From Mytilus trossulus (lineage: Eukaryota), in contig NC_086377.1 of NCBI RefSeq assembly GCF_036588685.1, positions 22,320,001 to 22,384,000 on the forward strand: a DNA stretch of 64,000 bases, read 5' to 3'. Positions 8,166-60,416 of this stretch are shown one piece after another. The position numbers and the translations under genes were made by a program. The notes under the pieces were generated by a model. The model saw nothing but the letters and a program-made list of their open reading frames with translations. It ran no database searches and had not been told where the DNA came from. Every line of letters starts with the position of its first letter. Position 1 is the stretch's first letter.

Positions 8166-8505
8166 TGGATAATGCATATCGTAATCAAAGAAAAAAATGT
8201 TTTACGCCATCTTATTATGACTGATGTAAAACTTAATTACCATTATTCACAATGAATAATGCAGTTAGAATAAATAAAGGGTCACCTTACAATAGGACAA
8301 AAAAATATATATAGATTTTGAAGCAACCGTTTTGTCATAAAAATTACACTGGTTATATATCAGTTTGACAAACACCAATTTTGATCTTTGAGAAGCTTGA
8401 TGTTCCCTTTACAACACAACGTAATTAAAACGTTTAGCTGACCATACAGAGTTATCTCCCTGGAGTGTTAGGTACCACCTTATTATACAACTTACATCCA
8501 CTTAA

Positions 8506-8778
8506 GGTGGTACCCAACACTTTCACTAAAATTAATTTGGCTCGTTTAATTTTCATAAAATTTTGACAAAGTATTAAATTTGACCCTTTGACAAAAATAT
8601 AAAAATTTAAAAAATTTGGAACCAACCATTTAGTCAGAAAAATTACACTGGTTATATAGCAATTTGACAAACACCAATTTTGATCATTGAGAAGCTTAAT
8701 ATTCCTTTTACAACACAACGTAATTAAAACGTTAAGCTGAATTTACAGAGTTATCTCCCTGTAGTGTTAGGTACCACC
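8506..8778. mobile_element. 273-bp MITE with TTAA target-site duplication (Kolobok-like GG..CC termini)
   Basis: TIR ggtggtacc(c/t)aacac, with TTAA at 8502-8505 and 8779-8782. A partial copy lies directly upstream (~8318-8482), a same-length inverted copy at 40453-40725 and a fragment at ~58180-58330. Confidence 0.8.
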
Positions 8779-9194
8779 TTAATTGAAACTGGTGGATAGT
8801 TTTGAAACATTGACAGTCATACACCATCTCCTTATTTTCATATCGACTATTGTCATCATGGGTATTTTACTAGGCAAAGATTAGATTTTAAAATGCGAGA
8901 CAGGAGTTTTGAGTACAACAAAAGCAGGATGACAATTTACGAGTATGTAAAAAAAGACAGAATAACATAATAAAAAGGCAGGATCGAATAGAGTGAAACA
9001 CAAGGAGACATGACAGCCATTACAACTGGACAACATATCAGGACATTTTTTTGTTTCGAAAATTATAATCTTTAAAAAAATTATCCTTTTGTCTTTTTAT
9101 TTAACCATAACGAGACCATTCGCATTGAATATACAACTCCTGAGTGACAAATTTTGAAAGAAATTTATATATTTTGACAAAATTGATTTATTAA

Positions 9195-10244: not shown

Positions 10245-10822
10245 GATGAAGTGGGGTTTGATCACGTTAAAGTTGTTTTTTGATATAGCTGCAATGGGTT
10301 TTTGAGCACGCTGAAGTGTGATCTTGCTCAAGTTGAAGTGGAATTGTGATCAAGCTGCAGTAGGTATTTGATCTCGGTGAAGTGGATTTTTGATCACTCT
10401 GAAGTGGTTTTTGGTCACGCTGAAGTAGATTTTTGACATAGCTGTAGTGTGTTTTTGTTCACACTGAAGTGTGTTTTTGATCAAGCTATAGTGGGTTTTT
10501 GATCACGCTGAAGTGGATTTTTGATCACTCTGAAGTTGTTTTTGGTCACGCTGAAGTAGATTTATGACATAGCTGTAGTGTGTTTTTGTTCCCGCTGAAG
10601 TTTTTTTTTTATCAAGCTGCAGTGGGTATTTTATCACGCTGAAGTGGGTTTTTAAATAAAACTAGTGGGTTTTTGATCATGCTGAAGTGTGTTTTTGATC
10701 AAGGTGCAGTGGGTATTTTATCACGCTGAAGTGGGTTTACGAATAAAGCTGCAGTGGGTTTTCATTCACGCTGAAGTGTGATTTTGATCAAGCTTCAAAG
10801 GATAATTCATCACGCTGGAGTG
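10245..10822. repeat. Degenerate minisatellite, ~21-22-bp unit (gctgaagtgggtttttgatcac)
   Basis: Roughly 25 tandem imperfect copies are visible, with higher-order duplication of blocks. Confidence 0.9.
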
Positions 10823-12387
10823 TGTACTGTATTTATTTGGAAATAACAAAATCCATCGTTTAGAAAAAATCCACTGGAAAAATATGCACATAAAATATCA
10901 GCGATACATTCGTTTTATCATATTCTTATAGAAAAAAAAATGATATAATTTAACCCAATGATAAAACTAGCTTTCTACATATATTTAGTCATTTATTTGA
11001 AGAATTGCTGTAGCCGTGTGATATGACTTTTCTTGTTAACTGCTTCCGGTTTATATCAACTGCTTGCGTCTCATATCAATTACTTCCGGTTATTATCGCA
11101 TGCTTTTCTGTAACTTTATCGCATGACATTTCGATTTCAATTTTCAAATTCTGGGAAAAACACCTCATTGATACCTTTTTATTTGTGGGTAAAACATTAC
11201 AAAATATGGATAAAAAAATTAAGAATCAGGAAAATACATTATTTATAAATGCAAAACAAGTATTACAACACATGCAATTTTCTAAAGTTTTAAAAATAGT
11301 TTTCTGTAAATATTCTGCTATGAAGTATACGATGAAACGCAGCAAAAAAAGTACAGAAGATCTTCAATTTCTTAGAAATCGCTGATTAAAAATAAGCGGT
11401 TGGGGGAATTACACCAAAAAGAAGTGACATGTCAGGTCATAATTGTTACCAAATGTAACCATAGGATGCAATAAAATAGTAATTTGTGAGAATTAGGATG
11501 ACATTAAACAATTATTGTGTTTGTCTGTTTGTCTTTTTCATTTTTAGCCATTAAGTTGTCAGTTTGTTTTAGATTTAAGAGTTTGACTGTCTCTTTGGTA
11601 TCTTTCGTCCCTCTTTTAAATAAGATCGTTAAAAATTACCTTGTAGACGTAATGCATGAACGTTCTTTTGAATTGATAAAATTTCCAATGTTCAATGTCT
11701 TGAACTGTGTGTGAACGTTGTTAGTTTTAAGTTTGATTTTTTTAAATCTTTTATGGATGCAAGATTTCAAAGTATTTATGCATATGAAATTGTCACTGTT
11801 ATGTACTTTTACGAAATAACCAATTTATTATGATATTTTAGCGTTAATGTATTTATAAGACTTTTTAAGCCTTTTGCAAGTATCTAATACCATTTTTACT
11901 ACAATCATGTAATATTGTTTGTAAATACTATGATGTGCATTTTGATGACGCAGGAGTCAGTACCCCGCTGGGGCTTGCCCCCGTTGTAAAGGGGTAGTTT
12001 CACAATAAAATATATATATTACATGATTTGTTATTTCCGCATTGATCACACTATTTTTTGTATCGTAGGGCTTTCCTATTCGTCAAAAATGGAGAAGGCC
12101 TGTTGATATCGTATTGCTTTAACATTTACTACATTAAAACATGGCTGTACCAAGTCAAGAGTATGACAGTTGCTGTCTTTTCTTTATCCTCCTCAACATG
12201 TGTACAGAAAAAATAAAGAATAATTTTTTTAGAAGGCTACTTTGGAAAATGTTCGAGTTGTTGACAAAACGTAATTAACAAATACAGAAATCTTCTAATG
12301 GCATACTTTTTACAACAAATGATTTGATGTGGCCTCTAAAATAAATGCAGATTTTGCAAATCTAATGTTCATTAAAACTAATAAATA

Positions 12388-13889: not shown

Positions 13890-34724
<20,835 letters not shown>

Positions 34725-36748: not shown

Positions 36749-37093
36749 TTAGAAGTATTTTTTGCCAACGACTAATCTTCGTCCTCCACCAAATCTCCCT
36801 CCTCGTCCACCGCCAAACCCTCCTATAAATCGGCCGCGAAATCCCCCTCCACGTCCACCTCCAAATCCTCCTAAAAATCTGCCACCGAATCCTCCGGGAA
36901 ATACTCCTCCTTTACCAAATCCAATCCATGGAGCTCCTATACCCCATCGATATCCACCACCTACGCCCCAACTTATTCCTCCTGCTCCCCATCCGGGTCC
37001 TCCAAATCCGCCGCCCCATCCACTTATTCCTATAAAGGTGGCATTAGTGCACACTGCTGCCAGTAGTAATCCCACGGCAATTGAGAGCTTCAT
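36749..37093 (-). CDS. Secreted glycine-rich, Trp/Phe/Arg-rich small protein (114 aa; shematrin/shell- or byssus-protein-like, or antimicrobial-like)
   Basis: Signal peptide MKLSIAVGLLLAAVCTNA, GGF/GGW/RGG repeats, no acidic residues, basic tail RRLVVGKKYF. Single coding exon with an acceptor tttag at 37101-37105 just upstream of the ATG. Confidence 0.88.
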   Translation of the reverse strand: MKLSIAVGLLLAAVCTNATFIGISGWGGGFGGPGWGAGGISWGVGGGYRWGIGAPWIGFGKGGVFPGGFGGRFLGGFGGGRGGGFRGRFIGGFGGGRGGRFGGGRRLVVGKKYF

Positions 37094-37198
37094 GTTATAC
37101 CTAAATATATATATATATATATATATAAATGTCTAAGAATATAACTAAAACACACTAATTGATACATTAAAAAGTTCTATTAGATGTTAAATAGAAAT

Positions 37199-37237
37199 AC
37201 GCAATATTTCGCTAAACAAATTAGCTTCATCAGGCGT
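37199..37237 (-). ncRNA. Minimal hammerhead ribozyme in the third Penelope 3' fragment
   Basis: Same motif, about 100 nt upstream (transcript sense) of the Gly-rich gene splice acceptor. Confidence 0.7.
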
Positions 37238-37886
37238 GTGCATCTCTCAAGGTGAAATCGGATGCATGACAGAAAAATATTTTTGTAGCTTAATCTATAC
37301 AAGATTTGAGGGATGGGTGTAACATATTAATTCGGTCATAAAATATGTTTGTAGCTACAACTACATGAAGTTGGAATAAAAGTTTAACACATTTATAGAT
37401 GTTCGATTAATTGTATAAATTTTTATAAATTAATTTGTATGATTTCAAGATAACTATGGTTTTGATTTGCTTTGAAATCTTTTTTCGTCTCTCTCATTGA
37501 GTCCATCAGTTTCAAGAGTTCGTAACTGGTGCATCCAAAATCTCTCTCTTTTTTGTCTTCCTTGTATAGATTAAGCTACAAAAATATTTTTCTGTCATGC
37601 ATCCGATTTCACCTTGAGAGATGCACACGCCTGATGAAGCTAATTGGCGACTTTGCAGCACTTACAATTGCCCCTTCCGCATTGTGTATAACCTCCATAT
37701 ATATATAATGTCTATATATAATGTCTAAAAATAGCAACAATCAACATTCAATCTAATTAAGCGTGGATCAGTTTGTGAAAATAAACTGATACAGTTACTG
37801 AATTAAAATTATGTAAATGTCTAAGAATATAACTAAAACACACTAATTGATACATTAAAAAGTTCTATTAGATGTTAAATAGAAAT

Positions 37887-37925
37887 ACGCAATATTTCGC
37901 TAAACAAATTAGCTTCATCAGGCGT
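37887..37925 (-). ncRNA. Minimal hammerhead ribozyme, mirror copy in the left arm
   Basis: Reverse complement of 39419-39457. Confidence 0.7.
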
Positions 37926-38141
37926 GTGCATCTCTCAAGGTGAAATCGGATGCATGACAGAAAAATATTTTTGTAGCTTAATCTATACAAGATTTGAGGG
38001 ATCGGTGTAACATATTAATTCGGTCATAAAATATGTTTGTAGCTACAACTACATGAAGTTGGAATAAAAGTTTAACACATTTATAGATGTTCGATTAATT
38101 GTATGAATTTTTATAAATTAATTTGTATGATTTCAAGATAA

Positions 38142-38677
38142 CTATGGTTTTGATTTGCTTTGAAATCTTTTTTCGTCTCTCTCATTGAGTCCATCAGGTT
38201 CAAGAGTTCGTAACTGGTGCATCCAAAATCTCTCTCTTTTTTGTCTTCCTTGTGTATCCCAATTTTGATTTTTCTCAATGATTTGAAATGTGATGTTTTC
38301 AAAATCATGTCCTGCTCTTAAAAGGTGTCTTGTAATTGGGCAGTTCCTTTCTTTTGTATAAAATGACCGATGGTTATTTAGTCGGATGTTAAATGGGGTT
38401 TCTGTTTCACCAACATATTGTAATTTGCAAGTTCCACACGTTAGAACATAAATGCAATTTTGCGTTTTGCAATTTGATGTTATGAATATGTTGTAATTTT
38501 TCTTTGTGACTGTGCTGATGAACTTGGTTTCTATATTGGCGACTTTGCAGCACTTACAATTGCCCCTTCCGCATTGTGTATAACCTCCAATTGTTGATAT
38601 CTCCCGTTTAGATACTTTGGATGATACTAGAATATCTTTGAGGTTTTTTGGTCTGCGGTAAGCCATAACGGGAGGTG
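38142..38677 (-). pseudogene. Penelope-like GIY-YIG endonuclease domain (5'-truncated, left arm)
   Basis: PPVMAYRRPKNLKDILV, Cys-rich linker CGRGNCKCC, CIYVLTCGTCKLQYVGET (GIY-YIG), RLNNH, RERFWMHQLRTLEPDGLNE. No RT present. Confidence 0.88.
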
Positions 38678-39202
38678 ATGGCTTACCGCAGACCAAAAAA
38701 CCTCAAAGATATTCTAGTATCATCCAAAGTATCTAAACGGGAGATATCAACAATTGGAGGTTATACACAATGCGGAAGGGGCAATTGTAAGTGCTGCAAA
38801 GTCGCCAATATAGAAACCAAGTTCATCAGCACAGTCACAAAGAAAAATTACAACATATTCATAACATCAAATTGCAAAACGCAAAATTGCATTTATGTTC
38901 TAACGTGTGGAACTTGCAAATTACAATATGTTGGTGAAACAGAAACCCCATTTAACATCCGACTAAATAACCATCGGTCATTTTATACAAAAGAAAGGAA
39001 CTGCCCAATTACAAGACACCTTTTAAGAGCAGGACATGATTTTGAAAACATCACATTTCAAATCATTGAGAAAAATCAAAATTGGGATACACAAGGAAGA
39101 CAAAAAAGAGAGAGATTTTGGATGCACCAGTTACGAACTCTTGAACCTGATGGACTCAATGAGAGAGACGAAAAAAGATTTCAAAGCAAATCAAAACCAT
39201 AG
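38678..39202 (+). pseudogene. Penelope-like GIY-YIG endonuclease domain (5'-truncated, right arm)
   Basis: Same translation as the left arm from MAYRRPKNL onward. Confidence 0.88.
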
Positions 39203-39418
39203 TTATCTTGAAATCATACAAATTAATTTATAAAAATTCATACAATTAATCGAACATCTATAAATGTGTTAAACTTTTATTCCAACTTCATGTAGTTGTA
39301 GCTACAAACATATTTTATGACCGAATTAATATGTTACACCGATCCCTCAAATCTTGTATAGATTAAGCTACAAAAATATTTTTCTGTCATGCATCCGATT
39401 TCACCTTGAGAGATGCAC

Positions 39419-39457
39419 ACGCCTGATGAAGCTAATTTGTTTAGCGAAATATTGCGT
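39419..39457 (+). ncRNA. Minimal hammerhead ribozyme in the Penelope 3' UTR
   Basis: ACGC-CUGAUGA-A-GCUAA(uuugu)UUAGC-GAAA-UA-UU-GCGU. Stem III is vestigial and palindromic (AUAU), as in PLE-associated HHRs. Confidence 0.7.
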
Positions 39458-40452
39458 ATTTCTATTTAACATCTAATAGAACTTTTTAATGTATCAATTA
39501 GTGTGTTTTAGTTATATTCTTAGACATTTATATATATATATATATATATATATCATTTAATATGTAGTATGTGATACTATACATATTTTAATCATTTACA
39601 ATTCATGATTTTAGGATGATAACGTTATCATGTTATGGTATTATGCAGGTGTTTTTAGTTTTTTTAGAGACATACTATATTAATTCAGTACAGTGTTTGT
39701 AAGTAGACATGATAAACTGTCATTCATGCACATTTTAGTATGCATAAGAATAATTTGTTCTAATTATGTTAGAATGTATATTTAAGATTGATTTTCTTGT
39801 TGGTTTGACTTAATGATCGGTTGTTGTTCGATGCCCGTATGAATGAGGAATACACTTCATCTAAGTATGAATCAAATATATTGAAACTGTGAATACATCA
39901 AATATGTTATCCTCTTTAAATAAAATATTGCGTTTCAGAAAAAGCAGCGTAGAATATACAGTGTTTTCCATCATTGACACAAATAACCACAAGCAACTAT
40001 TAAGACCACATACCGAGTTATCCTATTGCTATATAAGATAGATGCAGATATAGTGTACATTAATTAAATGTATAAAGCAAAGGTACAACCACTATATGTG
40101 TTCTATGTTACAGGATTTTACCTTACATACAAACAATTGGTTTATATATGTGCAAAATTCTATGATCAGAATTGCCTGAGTACATTATAGATCTGTCTGA
40201 TTTCGTAAAGATTTACCTGATTTTACGTTAAAAGCATATTATTTTTTTCTAGTTTTATTTTAATTTAGTTTTACAGTAGATATTCCTTGTTTTACAATCG
40301 ATTTACACGATTGTAGCATATATTGACATGAGTTACTCATGGATCTACTGCAATTTACCATTTGTAACATGATTTTAGCATCAATTTGCCTGAATTTGTC
40401 TTACATTTTATTTCAACTTAATATGGATTTATTTTACACTACGCTAGATTAA

Positions 40453-40725
40453 GGTGGTACCTAACACTACAGGGAGATAACTCTGTAAAGTCAGCTAAAC
40501 GTTTTAATGACGTTGTGTTGTAAAAGGAATATTAAGCTTCTCAATGATCAAAATTGGTGTTTGTCAAATTGCTATATAACCAGTGTAATTTTTCTGACAA
40601 AACGGTTGGTTCAAATTTTTTTATATTTTAATATTTTTGTTAAAGGGTCAAAGTAAATACTTTGGCAAAATTTTATGAAAATTAAACGAGCCAAATTAAT
40701 TTTAGCGAAAGTGTTGGGTACCACC
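40453..40725. mobile_element. 273-bp TTAA MITE (inverted copy of 8506-8778)
   Basis: TTAA at 40449-40452 and 40726-40729, same TIRs and same length. Confidence 0.8.
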
Positions 40726-43008
40726 TTAATATAATTTGACCTGGCATATATCTGTTTATACCCTTAATCACTGATAGTTTTCGGATGGTCGTATCGTAAT
40801 GTTACGACCACCCGAAAATGGGAGACATGTTTTGTAAATAACAAACAAGAGGCAATAACAATATACCTTTCTCAAAAAAATCTTTCGAGAAAGTAACACA
40901 GCTCCGGTTATGATAATTATTAGTTACGAATATAGAAAGTGCGTTTTTTTTAAGAAATTGGACATTACATGAAATAACAAAATCTTCAATGATGTCTTTC
41001 TTTATATTTTGCATCTATTATGTCTATTGAAAAGATGATTTAAAACAAACTATTATGCATCAACTAGGTGGAATTAAAAAAAATCTACCATTTGAATTTA
41101 CACTTTAATTCGAAACGGAATAAAAAAAATCATTGTTGAAGGCCGTACGGTGACCTATAGTTGTTAATGTATGTGTCAGTTTGTTCTTGTATGGATAGTT
41201 GTCTCAATGGCAGTCATACCATATCTTCTTTTTTATAAGCATGATACGTAAGGAATCAAAATAAGCTAAACATATTTATATGTTATGGCGGTCGTTGTCG
41301 AGACTAACGTACCTGAATTGAAAGACATACATCTTGTTCCCATAGCCTAGATTTTGAGGAGTCGTATTGTAATTTGGTAAAGTAAAGCTGATTTTAAGAA
41401 GCAATGTCGAAGTTCAGGTATAATTATAACGCGTGGTTAATTGAAATTCTGAATACGCCTATTGGTACCATGCTTTCCGATATACACACTGAACTTAAAA
41501 AAGGAATCAAATATAGGTATGTGAAGCTTGTATCCAGGATAATATTTAGAAAATAGAACTGTATGCTTCAACTCAGCGTACTGGTTTTTTAAAGCTACAT
41601 ACATTCATACAAATAAACATATGATATAAATATTATTTTCAATCTGCATATGTATGTGATAGTTGCCGCAGTACATTTAGTTCTACCTTGTAATATTATC
41701 ATGGCTCAAAAGCCTGGCCACAAACTACTTTATTTGTTTATCTTACTCTTAAATTCAACGAGTGTAGTAGTGTCAAATATATATCAACAATATTCATCCA
41801 TTCGAGGTTATCAAAATGTTCATGGTTTCAGTTTTTATTCCGTACAAATACTTAGAAATAAAACCAATGATACACTGCAATATATGATCGTCATGTATTC
41901 GACACGTTAAATACACCAGGACTTCGAAGTGCATTTGTGGATGTACCTTCATCTTGAACGACCATAAGTCGAATGTTTGTAGGCCAATGTTTTATAAAAA
42001 CTGCAATAGCTGATTAAAAATTAAAGATGATTCAATAATTTCATCTGCCGACATGATTACAATTAACAAAAAAATCGTAAATAAAACAAAATCTAAAAAC
42101 GAATATGAGGGAATACATATATATTCAACAATGTGTTGCCTTGACGTACAGGAAAACATATATTAATACTAATATTAATTTGAAAGGATGTGAAACAATT
42201 TGTATATGATTGGTATGTCGCCCCCTTACAAATATTTCTACATGTGAAATAAATTGAAAAGTTATTTAAAAAAAAAAAAAATTTGCGGCTTCAAGATGAC
42301 TGAGAAAGGTTTAAGAACTCAGACTAATCTGGGTAACACATAATATTGTTTATAGTAAACCATGTATGAACACAGAGTTTATCAACATAGTAATGTGGAC
42401 AGTACTTTTAAAATACTTTGATAAAAATTTATCTAAATACTCGAGTTACGGTCATCTTTCAAAGTTACAACCATCTTGTCTTGGTTATGATTATCATCCA
42501 AACTACTATGGTTGACATCAAACATTTAAAGTAATGGCCATCATGCTTGACTATTTTAATGAATATTTGACGGAAATTTGAATGATTTTATGTATAAAAT
42601 TTGGTTTCAATATCAACGCCCTTACGATAGGTGTACTAATATATATGAGACAAGCGAGTTGGCTTAAATGAACTTTGTACTGCACGAAAATCGGAAATGA
42701 AAATCTTATCCCTTGTTGGGTCCCATATTCAGAAGGTCGTAACTTTACTTTACGACTTTCTGCTTACCACTAGTGATTAATATATTAATCAACTTCGATT
42801 CAGTTTAGTTCATTCAATATAGTTTTACAATTTAGAACTGAAATTATATATACGTGTGTTTAATTTCAAATGAATGAATTCTACAGTTCACAAAAGTAAT
42901 TATGGGATCAGATTTAGATTTCTTGATTATTTTCGTAACATATAGGTTCAACATCAGAATAAGAAGCTGATATTTATTACATTAACCTATATCAAAATCA
43001 CACCTTAC

Positions 43009-51500: not shown

Positions 51501-54500
51501 TGAATGACATTGTATGGGAGTTATTCCCCTTCAAATATGTGATATAAAGTGAGAAAAGTCAAAGTAATGTTCTTTGTTTTAAACTTAACCTGTTATTTAT
51601 TCCAAAATATAATTTAATACAATGTTTTCAATGCCAATATTGCAAACTTTCGTTTCTTGTAACAGTATAATCAACAATCACAACTGATATTGATAATATC
51701 AACAAATAGAAAACAATATATATCAAATTTTAACTAAAATATGAGAAAGTTATCAGCTAATTCGACAAGTGAGTTTATTAATCCAAATTTCAGTGGTTAG
51801 TCCCTATTTGAAGGATTAATATGGCAATACAGTTTAAAGCGTGTATCGTAGTTACTTGTGCATGTGCATTGCCAGAAAAACGAATACCATCTAAAAGATT
51901 TTGTAACATCATTTTACTTTTTGAACCTTTTGGATTATAGCTCTTCATATATTATATAAGCTTTGGATCACTGAAGAGACATGTTTTGTCGAAATGCGAA
52001 TCTGGTGCAAGAATATTGCTACCGTTATTTGTATTACTGTCATTCCGTTAAAAATGGCAAAATCATTCTAAATTTGTCATTGAAAATAAAAATATCAAAA
52101 ATGGGCCGCCTTCAAACTCAGATAAAAATCTACAAGTACTATGCTCAGTCATTCGAAGACGAAACAAGAAGTGTGTATTGTCATAGACATGTCAAGCTGT
52201 ATTCTGTTATTAAATTTAGCTTTAATGACGACTATGGGGGTTGTTGCATTGACTCATTATGTTGCTAAATTTAACGAACTGCTACGAGTAATATAAAAAA
52301 GCACTTTTGTTTAAATGTGATTACCTGTAAACATCCGTTTGTTTTCTCACATTTATCTAAGGCTATAAATACTGTCATCATATTTGGCTCCAAAAACTCA
52401 TTTTGATACCAATATCTGTAAAGTTTGTTGAATGTAAAAAAAACACCTATTACTTGTTTGAGTAATGTAATTTACTCTTTTTTTAAGTATTAATAAACAA
52501 ATTTTCTGCACATATGTCAGAAAAAGTCTTTTAAAACAATGCCGGCATAATCCAGAATTAATAAAAGAACGAAGAGATATAGTATGATGAACAGTGCGAC
52601 AAATATTAACTTGAACGTGATCAAATGAATGTATATGATGAGCAACCGTTTGGATTTCAGCCATGAGAAAAATGTTGTATAAAAAAAGAACCAACTTAGC
52701 AACATTGAAATAAAGGAATTATTTCGGTAAACATATATAATTATCATAGAAATGATCTCTTTAACATATCACTATGCGTTGCTGTACAAAAGGGTGATAC
52801 AAAAAGTTTATCACATATTTGTTATGAATACCTTAGGTTTTGCATATCCAATAACCTCAAAATTGTCCGGGGCAAAAAAGAGGTATTGATATTGTGCCCT
52901 GTTCCTACTGACGTGACGTCATTGTATCCTTAACGACACGTTCGTGATAAATTGTTTAAGATTTTACCTTTTATGTATCATTAAAATGTTATAATTGACT
53001 TTTTTTCTCTCTTCTGCAGAACTTAAATATGTGCTAAAGCCTCGAGGTCGATATGGAAAAGGGCATTGTTCTAATCTATACATATTGCATACCCATAATC
53101 TTGATGCCACAAATGAGCTCCTCCTGTAAAAGGCTCTTTGGTAACCAACTTTCCATGATAGTGGTACACTTCGTCTCCAAGTAACTAAATAAAATGTTTA
53201 AATAAGGAAATTGTTTTGTATCAAAAATAGAATATTACAATATTTTGCAAATTTAAGCTATCACTGGCATCAGTTTAGTAGGTTTTTCAAATTGGAACAA
53301 GCATTTTCCAAGCCGATATGCCGATACCATATATATTCTGTTAAAGTGTGTTTGCGTCTATCTTTGATTAAGAGAAAGTATAGTTTTGTTTACAAATCTT
53401 TAACACAAACTATAAATTGTTACAATCTGATCTGTTTTATTTGATTTCTCAAACAATTTTTAGAATTGCATGAGGTTTCTTTCACAATTACAAATTTTGA
53501 ATCAACATGATGAATTATTCGAGTTCGGTCTATCTTAGAGTTTGCAATTGAGGAGAACTGTAATTAAAATATATTTATATTAGTGCATTATACATGTTAT
53601 ATACGGTGTTAATCTATTGGTTTTAGCATTGTACCAAGATATAGACGCATACCTGTTCGCATGTCCCGGCTACTTTTTCCGATCTACTGACCATTCCAAT
53701 GACGTCGTTACCCGGATGTCCCCATATGGTCAATTTTGCTTCACGACCTTGACAATCAGAAACCTTCAAAATACATGGAGGGAGCTTTTTATTAATAGCA
53801 CTTAATATCTGGAAGCCAAATATAAGAATATATCTGATTGATATACAAATCGACTCGGTATCTAACATGCAGGTGTTTTGCACTATGTTCTATTATTCAA
53901 TTGTCCAATTTCAAGTGCACTTATATCCTAAATTGTTGCATCAATTTATATACAAATAACAAAATTCTGAATAAATACAGCTTTCGTTTGAGTACCATTT
54001 GTAGCGAGAGGCTTGTACCTTATCGTCGAGAGAGCCAAACATATGCAGTACTATTAAAAATACATGTTGACATTTTCTAATCAAATTAAGTAATTTGAAT
54101 TTCGTTGTAAGTCTTAATATCGGATGTGTCGTTGATAACAGATAAAGATTACATAGTATGTTCTTTACTAAACATGGTTGAATTGAGAAATTAAACAAAC
54201 TACTTGATTAAGCAATACAATTAAGTGTCATGCAGGTACAATTTTTTGTTGGATTGAAATTTATGTTTCGTTGTTAAAACTGTTTAATTATTATGACAAC
54301 TTTACCTGCACTTTATTATTATTTAAAAGCTCTGCAGTAGATGGATCTTCAAACTCATTTATAACTTTCTCTACTTCTGTTGCATCTAAGACATTTCTGA
54401 TTATTAAAATGAAAATCAAACATGTTCAAACGTGCAAAATAATAAACACAGCTTTTTGAGTTAATTGCTAAATGTATCTGTAATTTAGATAGAATATCGC

Positions 54501-59683: not shown

Positions 59684-59727
59684 GCATCACTGAAGAGACA
59701 TTTTTTGTCGAAATGCGCATCTGGTGC
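59684..59727 (+). ncRNA. Type I hammerhead ribozyme, unit 1
   Basis: GCAUCA-CUGAAGA-GACA(uuuuu)UGUC-GAAA-UGCGCA-UC-UGGUGC. Predicted cleavage after 59721. Confidence 0.88.
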
Positions 59728-60034: not shown

Positions 60035-60078
60035 GCATCACTGAAGAGATATTTTTTGTCGAAATGCGCATCTGGTGC
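60035..60078 (+). ncRNA. Type I hammerhead ribozyme, unit 2
   Basis: Same core. A C>U change in stem II keeps a wobble pair. Predicted cleavage after 60072. Confidence 0.85.
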
Positions 60079-60373: not shown

Positions 60374-60416
60374 GCATCACTGAAGAGACATTTTTTGTCG
60401 AAATGGCATATGGTGC
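60374..60416 (+). ncRNA. Type I hammerhead ribozyme, unit 3 (variant)
   Basis: Core intact, but there is a 1-nt deletion in the stem III palindrome (UGGCA) and the cleavage site is UA. Confidence 0.6.

What the first reader, a model, noticed from the sequence alone, without database searches (positions are those of the whole stretch)
37814..39530. 853-bp apparently perfect inverted repeat with an 11-nt loop made of Penelope GIY-YIG endonuclease sequence
Both arms are 853 bp and I saw no mismatch, so the event is very recent. The loop continues the authentic reading frame (PSPPVMAYRR) and is closed by ccat/atgg, which suggests fold-back self-priming of truncated cDNA. Transcription from either strand would give long dsRNA (endo-siRNA/ADAR substrate able to silence the family), and the DNA could extrude a cruciform. 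Both arms retain an open ATG-initiated ~174-aa endonuclease-only ORF.
Basis: partly seen in the sequence, partly recalled or inferred. Interest (0 to 1): 0.7.

Follow-up and report, generated by a model that had tools for sequence, protein, structure and literature searches.

The report
Mirror-image Penelope-like insertion in mussel
A shortened copy of a Penelope-like jumping gene sits here as a flawless 853-base mirror repeat between two TA runs, likely because its new DNA copy folded back and copied itself during insertion; this layout is already described for these elements, so it is a clean example rather than a new kind of thing.

Summary
The palindrome is confirmed: arms 37814-38666 and 38678-39530, 853 bp, no mismatch, 11-nt loop. 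It is the 3' end of a multi-copy RT+GIY-YIG Penelope-like family whose relatives are annotated in Mytilus. The CCAT-N11-ATGG at the junction is native element sequence, which fits fold-back priming.

It runs from about 37128 to 39530 between (TA)n tracts. It also holds a 96-nt native tail on the left arm only, a third truncated copy, two short captured pieces and three minimal hammerhead motifs.

An inverted 5'-truncated copy with a one-sided tail is the published layout of these elements (PMC8557442, PMC3846280). This scan noted the same layout in several other genomes. Fold-back is favoured over priming from both cut strands but is not proven. The junction was not verified in independent reads.

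The endonuclease-only ORF starts at an internal Met and is probably not expressed. dsRNA, siRNA and cruciform effects are untested. The insert likely lies in an intron of a glycine-rich secreted-protein gene.

The parts
36749..37093 (-). Host ORF, 114 aa, signal-peptide-like start and glycine-rich body. A splice-acceptor-like TTTAG/G lies 7 nt before its ATG, directly after the left TA tract (gene status and intron inferred)
   Evidence: no homolog found; only weak look-alikes (0.76-0.77)
37105..37127 (.). Left (TA)n target tract
37128..37565 (-). Copy A: 5'-truncated third copy ending at the proximal 3' end, 3 internal differences from the arms
37199..37237 (-). Minimal hammerhead motif in copy A
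37561..37645 (+). 85-nt inverted piece, a subset of copy A (37219-37303), joined by 5-nt microhomology CTTGT; ends inside the hammerhead motif
37643..37697 (-). 55-nt piece of the endonuclease region, identical to the arms (38535-38589), joined by 3-nt microhomology ATT
37697..37719 (-). Short (TA)n plus a 13-nt duplication of the element's distal 3' end (likely an aborted start of reverse transcription)
37720..37813 (-). Native 3' tail (about 96 nt between the two ACATT ends), present on the left arm only
   Evidence: L001, L002; table 8, contigs crossing 37813/37814
37814..38666 (-). Left arm, 853 bp: endonuclease coding part and 3' UTR/pLTR
37887..37925 (-). Minimal hammerhead motif, left arm
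38667..38677 (-). 11-nt loop, native element sequence belonging to the left copy; flanked by CCAT (38663-38666) and ATGG (38678-38681)
38678..39530 (+). Right arm, 853 bp, no tail; stops at the proximal TTTA(TA)n end
38678..39202 (+). 174-aa open frame: CX4CxxC linker plus GIY-YIG domain, starting at an internal Met (mirror copy 38142-38666 on minus)
39419..39457 (+). Minimal hammerhead motif, right arm
39529..39553 (.). Right (TA)n target tract

Best explanation
This is a 5'-truncated, RT-less insertion of a Penelope-like retrotransposon between two (TA)n tracts, and its mirror arm was likely made when the first cDNA strand folded back on a native 4-bp hairpin and copied itself. SHOWN: the layout; the family identity; that CCAT-N11-ATGG is native; that the right arm is wholly contained in the left copy; and that it stops at a site where the family carries a TATATA run. 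INFERRED, in order: (1) The element's endonuclease nicks the (TA)n tract and the + strand 3' end primes cDNA at the RNA's distal 3' end, with one 13-nt false start. (2) RT copies the tail and 868 nt of element and stops at about 38681. (3) The cDNA end ATGG pairs with CCAT 11 nt back, and RT or a host polymerase copies the cDNA for 853 nt. (4) At the first TATATA run the new strand is captured by the other (TA)n end, leaving the tail on one side only. Copy A and its inverted piece are likely an earlier insertion of the same subfamily in the same tract. The product is likely a dead copy with no function of its own.
For: Zero mismatches in 853 bp, although family copies differ (96% to L001, 3 differences in about 440 nt to copy A). 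Both arms share K48, found in 0 of 9 relatives covering it, so they come from one template. The native sequence upstream of the ATG is TTTT-CCAT-N11-ATGG (L001; loose ends). Only 108 of 1682 positions of the L001 element offer a 4-bp stem with a loop of 11 nt or less, and 34 of 1682 with at least 2 G/C. The copy that owns the loop is also the copy that owns the tail, which fold-back requires. In L001 the first TA run of 6 nt or more after the junction lies at the arm end. A second inversion with 5-nt microhomology onto its own upstream sequence sits in copy A. The only three (TA)5+ tracts in 64 kb all abut element ends. Fold-back at 2-bp microhomologies is described at L1 insertion sites (10.1101/2024.12.14.628481, passages) and at yeast breaks (PMC11724301, abstract).
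Against: A 4-bp stem is weak and occurs at 6% of positions, so it is suggestive only. The right arm stops at the same site as copy A, which must be a real RT start site, so independent priming of the right arm explains that end equally well. A purified PLE protein cuts and extends both target strands and has two RT start sites (PMC11167929). The window's own left arm has a rare base at 37813 that breaks the TATATA run, so the capture step needs that change to be later, or needs only 2-4 nt of pairing. The fold-backs reported for L1 copy flanking genomic DNA, and the synthesis tracts given in PMC10191854 are about 52-220 bp, not 853 nt of the insert. The junction rests on this assembly alone.
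Confidence: 0.55

Rival explanations
1. Priming from both cut strands. The element's protein nicks both strands of the (TA)n and starts one cDNA from each end, at its two start sites (distal on the left, proximal on the right), on the same 5'-shortened RNA or on two RNAs from one master copy. The two cDNA ends then anneal through CCAT/ATGG.
For: PAc cleaves and extends both strands, is predicted to be a dimer and starts at two internal sites that define the tail (PMC11167929). The two arms end exactly at the two family ends seen in copy A and in L001/L002. The final sequence is the same as under fold-back.
Against: It needs both cDNAs to stop within 15 nt of each other, which is unlikely unless one truncated RNA is copied twice. 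It does not predict that the right arm is nested in the left copy at both ends, and it would allow arm differences; none are seen.
Confidence: 0.27
2. Assembly or read artefact: a chimeric junction, or two similar inverted copies polished to identity.
For: The family is very deep in short-read data (summed contig depth in the thousands against about 35 on the flanks). Such structures are known to trouble assemblies (PMC8557442, section 6). The assembly method is unknown to me.
Against: A read fold-back would mirror the tail and the flank. Here symmetry stops at a biologically defined element end and runs into a different unique flank. Both flanks exist with 0 differences and similar depth (36.4, 33.7) in run X1, which may be the source sample. 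The one-sided tail is the known biological signature.
Confidence: 0.11
3. The palindrome arose after insertion, by repair of a DNA break in an older copy (fold-back at the same micro-hairpin), or is kept identical by arm-to-arm conversion.
For: The arms share changes that are rare or absent in relatives (table 3). Against L001, 12 codons differ non-synonymously and 4 synonymously, so the template may have been a decayed copy.
Against: A repair fold-back has no reason to end at the element's own proximal end followed by a fresh (TA)n. No RT-coding remainder is found elsewhere in the window (tblastn).
Confidence: 0.07

Closest known systems
Inverted-repeat insertions of endonuclease-bearing Penelope-like elements (general layout in PMC8557442 Fig. 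2 legend; Pen2a_Av and Pen2_Av in PMC3846280; Drosophila virilis Penelope form C in PMC2377424)
   Same: 5'-truncated copies in partial tandem, an inverted 5'-truncated copy directly adjacent at the 5' end, a tail at one end only, a hammerhead motif in the terminal repeat, a microsatellite target that hides any target-site duplication, and microhomology junctions.
   Different: Here the inverted copy is almost as long as the direct one, so the unit is a near-perfect palindrome. The tail is about 96 nt rather than the 30-40 nt described. There are extra captured pieces and a 13-nt false start.
Neptune/Nematis clades of EN+ PLEs
   Same: C-terminal GIY-YIG after RT, a CX2-5CxxC linker (CGRGNCKCC), a CCHH-type core, a DKG motif in long relatives, and a microsatellite target.
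   Different: Clade placement was not tested by a tree; no labelled reference sequences were at hand.
Poseidon element PAc of Anolis (PMC11167929)
   Same: Two 3' ends separated by a tail, AT-rich target, hammerhead motif.
   Different: PAc starts in an AC-rich stem-loop without homology to the target, at sites 111-118 nt into the ORF. Here both ends abut TA runs, so pairing with the (TA)n target may guide priming (inferred).
L1 twin-priming inversions and fold-back inverted duplications (PMC10191854; 10.1101/2024.12.14.628481)
   Same: Inversion at the 5' junction with short microhomology; hairpin-primed synthesis is proposed.
   Different: L1 twin priming inverts without duplicating (recalled). 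The L1 fold-backs in those passages duplicate flanking genomic DNA, not the whole insert.

Membership tests
EN+ Penelope-like element | [quoted passage not shown] | tested here: met
   Met for the family: P0001 (97% identical to the arm protein) and P0037 have RVT_1 then GIY-YIG. This copy keeps only the endonuclease part.
EN+ Penelope-like element | CCHH-type motif with two cysteines in the GIY-YIG core | tested here: met
   IYVLTCGTCKLQYVGET...RLNNH...ITRHL read directly from the translation; definition from PMC8557442 section 6.
EN+ Penelope-like element | 5' truncation, partial tandem and/or inverted adjacent copy, one-sided tail | tested here: met
EN+ Penelope-like element | Minimal hammerhead motif in the terminal repeat | tested here: met
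   Own descriptor: core CUGAUGA, one bulged nt, 5-bp stem II, GAAA, 2-nt loop III, 4-bp stem I; 3 copies in the insert and 0 hits in 30 random 64-kb sequences. Rfam found no hammerhead. Cleavage untested; L002 has a changed core base.
EN+ Penelope-like element | Target-site duplication | tested here: inconclusive
   Both ends lie in (TA)n, so a duplication cannot be told.
EN+ Penelope-like element | RT groups with telomerase/PLE RTs in a tree | not tested
   No tree was built; only the Pfam RVT_1 match and the DKG motif.
Neptune/Nematis clade | CX2-5CxxC linker between RT and EN | tested here: met
   CGRGNCKCC in the arm protein and equivalent motifs in P0001-P0004, P0008 and P0010.
Neptune/Nematis clade | Phylogenetic placement of RT | not tested
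Naiad clade | N-terminal EN, DKA motif, no hammerhead | tested here: not met
   EN is C-terminal, the motif is DKG, and a hammerhead motif is present.
Hairpin-RNA / endo-siRNA locus | Transcription through both arms and production of small RNAs | not testable with these tools
   No stranded RNA or small-RNA reads were laid. Folding shows only that a read-through RNA would pair 852 of 853 arm bases.

The most novel reading that the evidence does not exclude
The insert sits in the 5' intron of a secreted glycine-rich gene, so each host pre-mRNA would carry a perfect 853-bp hairpin covering the endonuclease and 3' end of an abundant element family. Fold-back insertion would then be a one-step route by which Penelope-like elements create their own silencing loci. 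The locus would also show a (TA)n-pairing mode of priming with two start sites 96 nt apart, unlike the homology-free priming shown for PAc.
Probability: 0.12. Interest if true: 0.55.

Novelty: new member of a known kind. Interest (0 to 1): 0.2.

Why it matters
As one locus it matters little: it is probably a dead, young copy in a published layout. Its value is as a data point. How Penelope-like elements make inverted copies and one-sided tails is still called open in PMC8557442 and PMC11167929. This insert records a native hairpin at the junction, two 3' ends, a false start and three microhomology jumps. A genome-wide census of such palindromes in one mussel assembly could separate fold-back from two-sided priming. 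If the intron reading holds, it is also a natural test of whether such inserts yield siRNA or disturb a host gene.

Tried and rejected
Read check of the junction (window 38645-38714). None of the 30 pieces listed, out of 67 laid in runs X1, X2, X3 and X12, bridges 38677/38682. That includes all 8 of 8 laid in X1, the run that holds both flanks without a difference. The pieces and loose ends show the native continuation instead. These are assembled contigs, which drop rare paths between deep repeats, so this is neither confirmation nor absence, but it is a failure to confirm.

could not show an empty or filled site, because the tool cuts reads at both TA tracts. At several arm positions (e.g. 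38860) every X1 contig laid carries another base than the window, which is equally uninformative.

No whole genome is held, so no census of family palindromes was possible. Scans of genome contigs and viral contigs found no relative. Metagenome contigs gave 6 loci, of which 2 are close (L001, L002); neither is palindromic, and they share identical sequence beyond the TA tract, so their flanks are not independent.

Rfam found nothing at gathering thresholds in the window and no hammerhead by E-value.

Host ORF (query lacked the first Met): no Pfam family, no homolog among 7995 candidates, atlas hits only 0.76-0.77. Three differences seen in one X2 contig give 2 synonymous changes and 1 replacement, too few to show coding constraint.

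Rejected: a DNA transposon or MITE with long terminal inverted repeats (the arms are coding sequence of an RT-EN ORF); a functional endonuclease-only gene (internal Met, no promoter evidence, ATG inside the stem); the Naiad clade.

Full report
Observation. The palindrome is in the sequence as described. From the centre at 38672 there is no mismatch between offsets 6 and 858, giving arms 37814-38666 and 38678-39530 (853 bp) and an 11-nt loop closed by CCAT/ATGG. Each arm carries a 174-aa open frame with a GIY-YIG domain above Pfam's cut-off. The window has no N. No whole genome is held.

What family it is. A search among longer proteins gave 15 hits of 129 candidates, the best 97% identical over the whole query. 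That cluster has 19 members; 6 carry names, all from Mytilus edulis or M. trossulus, so the window is likely a Mytilus mussel (inferred). Long members have RT followed by GIY-YIG, a DKG motif and a CX4CxxC linker. By the definitions in PMC8557442 (passages and section 6 read) this is a canonical EN+ Penelope-like element of Neptune/Nematis type, not a Naiad. I built no tree. No RT-coding part is left in the window. The ATG that opens the 174-aa frame is an internal Met in EIFPSPPVMAYRR, so the 'endonuclease-only ORF' is a by-product of where the copy was cut.

The insert spans about 37128-39530. Along the + strand it reads: (TA)n; copy A, an antisense 438-nt 3' end with 3 internal differences from the arms; an 85-nt sense piece that is a subset of copy A, joined by CTTGT; a 55-nt antisense endonuclease piece identical to the arms, joined by ATT; a short TA run and a 13-nt duplication; a tail; the left arm; the loop; the right arm; (TA)n. 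L001 (96%) and L002 (77%) align through the left arm and the tail down to 37697, and contigs in X1 and X12 cross 37813/37814, so the tail is native. The family thus has two 3' ends 96 nt apart, each ending in ACATT or ATATT before a TA run. The right arm and copy A use the proximal end, the left copy the distal one. The only three (TA)5+ tracts in the 64 kb are at these ends. A minimal hammerhead motif, matching the description in PMC4209133 (part 1 of 4 read), lies in each arm and in copy A; my descriptor gave 0 hits in 30 random 64-kb sequences. Rfam does not detect it, and cleavage is untested.

The junction. The left copy extends through ATGG, and the right arm begins within those 4 bases. 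A 4-bp stem with a loop of at most 11 nt is available at 108 of 1682 positions of the L001 element, and at 34 with two or more G/C: supportive, not decisive. Both arms share residue K48, found in 0 of 9 relatives covering it, so they derive from one template.

Mechanism. I favour fold-back (0.55). A cDNA primed on the + strand from the distal end stops at 38681, pairs ATGG with CCAT, is copied back 853 nt and is captured by the other (TA)n end at the first TATATA run, which in L001 falls at the arm end. Fold-back requires the second arm to be nested in the first and the loop to belong to the tailed copy; both hold. The main rival (0.27) is priming from both cut strands. PMC11167929 (parts 1-3 of 4 read) shows that a PLE protein cuts and extends both strands and starts at two sites that define the tail. 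This explains the two different ends naturally and gives the same final sequence if one shortened RNA is copied twice. Against my reading: the right end is a real start site in any case; the window's left arm has a rare base at 37813 that breaks the TATATA run; and the L1 fold-backs I read about copy flanking DNA, over about 52-220 bp in PMC10191854 (passages of that paper and of 10.1101/2024.12.14.628481; abstract of PMC11724301). An artefact (0.11) is argued against by the asymmetry and by two different unique flanks at equal depth in X1. I could not confirm the junction in reads; details are under Tried and rejected. Later repair or conversion gets 0.07. Whether copy A is a separate earlier insertion, and to which event the 55-nt piece belongs, is unresolved: A has derived bases at 2 of its 3 differing sites relative to L001, while the 55-nt piece matches the arms, not L001.

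Context and consequences. On the minus strand the left TA tract is followed directly by TTTAG/GTATAAC-ATG and a 114-aa glycine-rich frame with a signal-peptide-like start. Donor-like sites lie at 39675, 40013 and 40130. The insert therefore probably lies in an intron before the first coding exon (inferred; the gene has no confirmed homolog). A read-through RNA would pair 852 of 853 arm bases, which would also bury the hammerhead motifs and the ATG. Nothing here shows transcription, small RNAs, editing or cruciform extrusion.

Comparison with what is known. PMC8557442 states that an inverted 5'-truncated copy often lies directly at the 5' end, forming inverted repeats, with a tail often at one end only and (TA)n targets that hide duplications. 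PMC3846280 (parts 1-3 of 5 read) describes inverted pLTRs overlapping the direct one by 15 bp, and short terminal palindromes. PMC2377424 (passages) describes large inverted terminal repeats of varying size. The locus works like these and meets every tested structural feature. It differs in degree: near-equal arms, a longer tail, several jumps. The listings of my searches showed no paper on this locus or on PLE palindromes as hairpin-RNA sources in mussels. That is a listing-level result in an open-access library, and I read no supplements, which may hold such structures. Passages of 10.64898/2026.07.22.740005 had no bearing. This scan's earlier notes list the same layout in other genomes and none for look-alikes of this stretch; they are unchecked and not used as support.

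Verdict. The feature is real in the assembly, an ordinary kind and a clean example. Interest 0.2.

Noticed in passing
window 51967-52006, 59686-59725, 60037-60076, 60376-60414 (+) and 22398-22437 (-): Five more hammerhead-like motifs from other repeat families; the 59.4-60.4 kb copies lie in a tandem array of about 350 nt, resembling retrozyme or pLTR-derived repeats.
   Followed up: no
window 36749-37093 (-): Glycine-rich 114-aa ORF with a signal-peptide-like start and no identified homolog; a related sequence with 10 differences in 146 nt appears in run X12, possibly a paralog or an ortholog.
   Followed up: partly
L001 1-1860 and 2253-3689; L002 54-1240 and 1634-3415: Both metagenome contigs show this family tail-to-tail with a second, more distant RT-bearing PLE family across a (TA)n tract; they share the sequence beyond the tract, so this may be one locus or an assembly join through the microsatellite.
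   Followed up: partly
window 20550-28479: Nine copies of a 125-nt unit at 0.5-1.35 kb spacing, 64-74% alike; some overlap cysteine-rich reading stretches on the minus strand, possibly tandem exons of a repeat-domain gene.
   Followed up: no
window 10252-10826: Diverged 22-nt tandem array with higher-order spacing (87-109 nt) and strong strand skew.
   Followed up: no
window 8317-8783 and 40445-40729: Very high-copy element of about 280 nt present in both orientations (95%), MITE-like by depth and loose ends.
   Followed up: no
window 23585-23847: 43-nt minisatellite.
   Followed up: no
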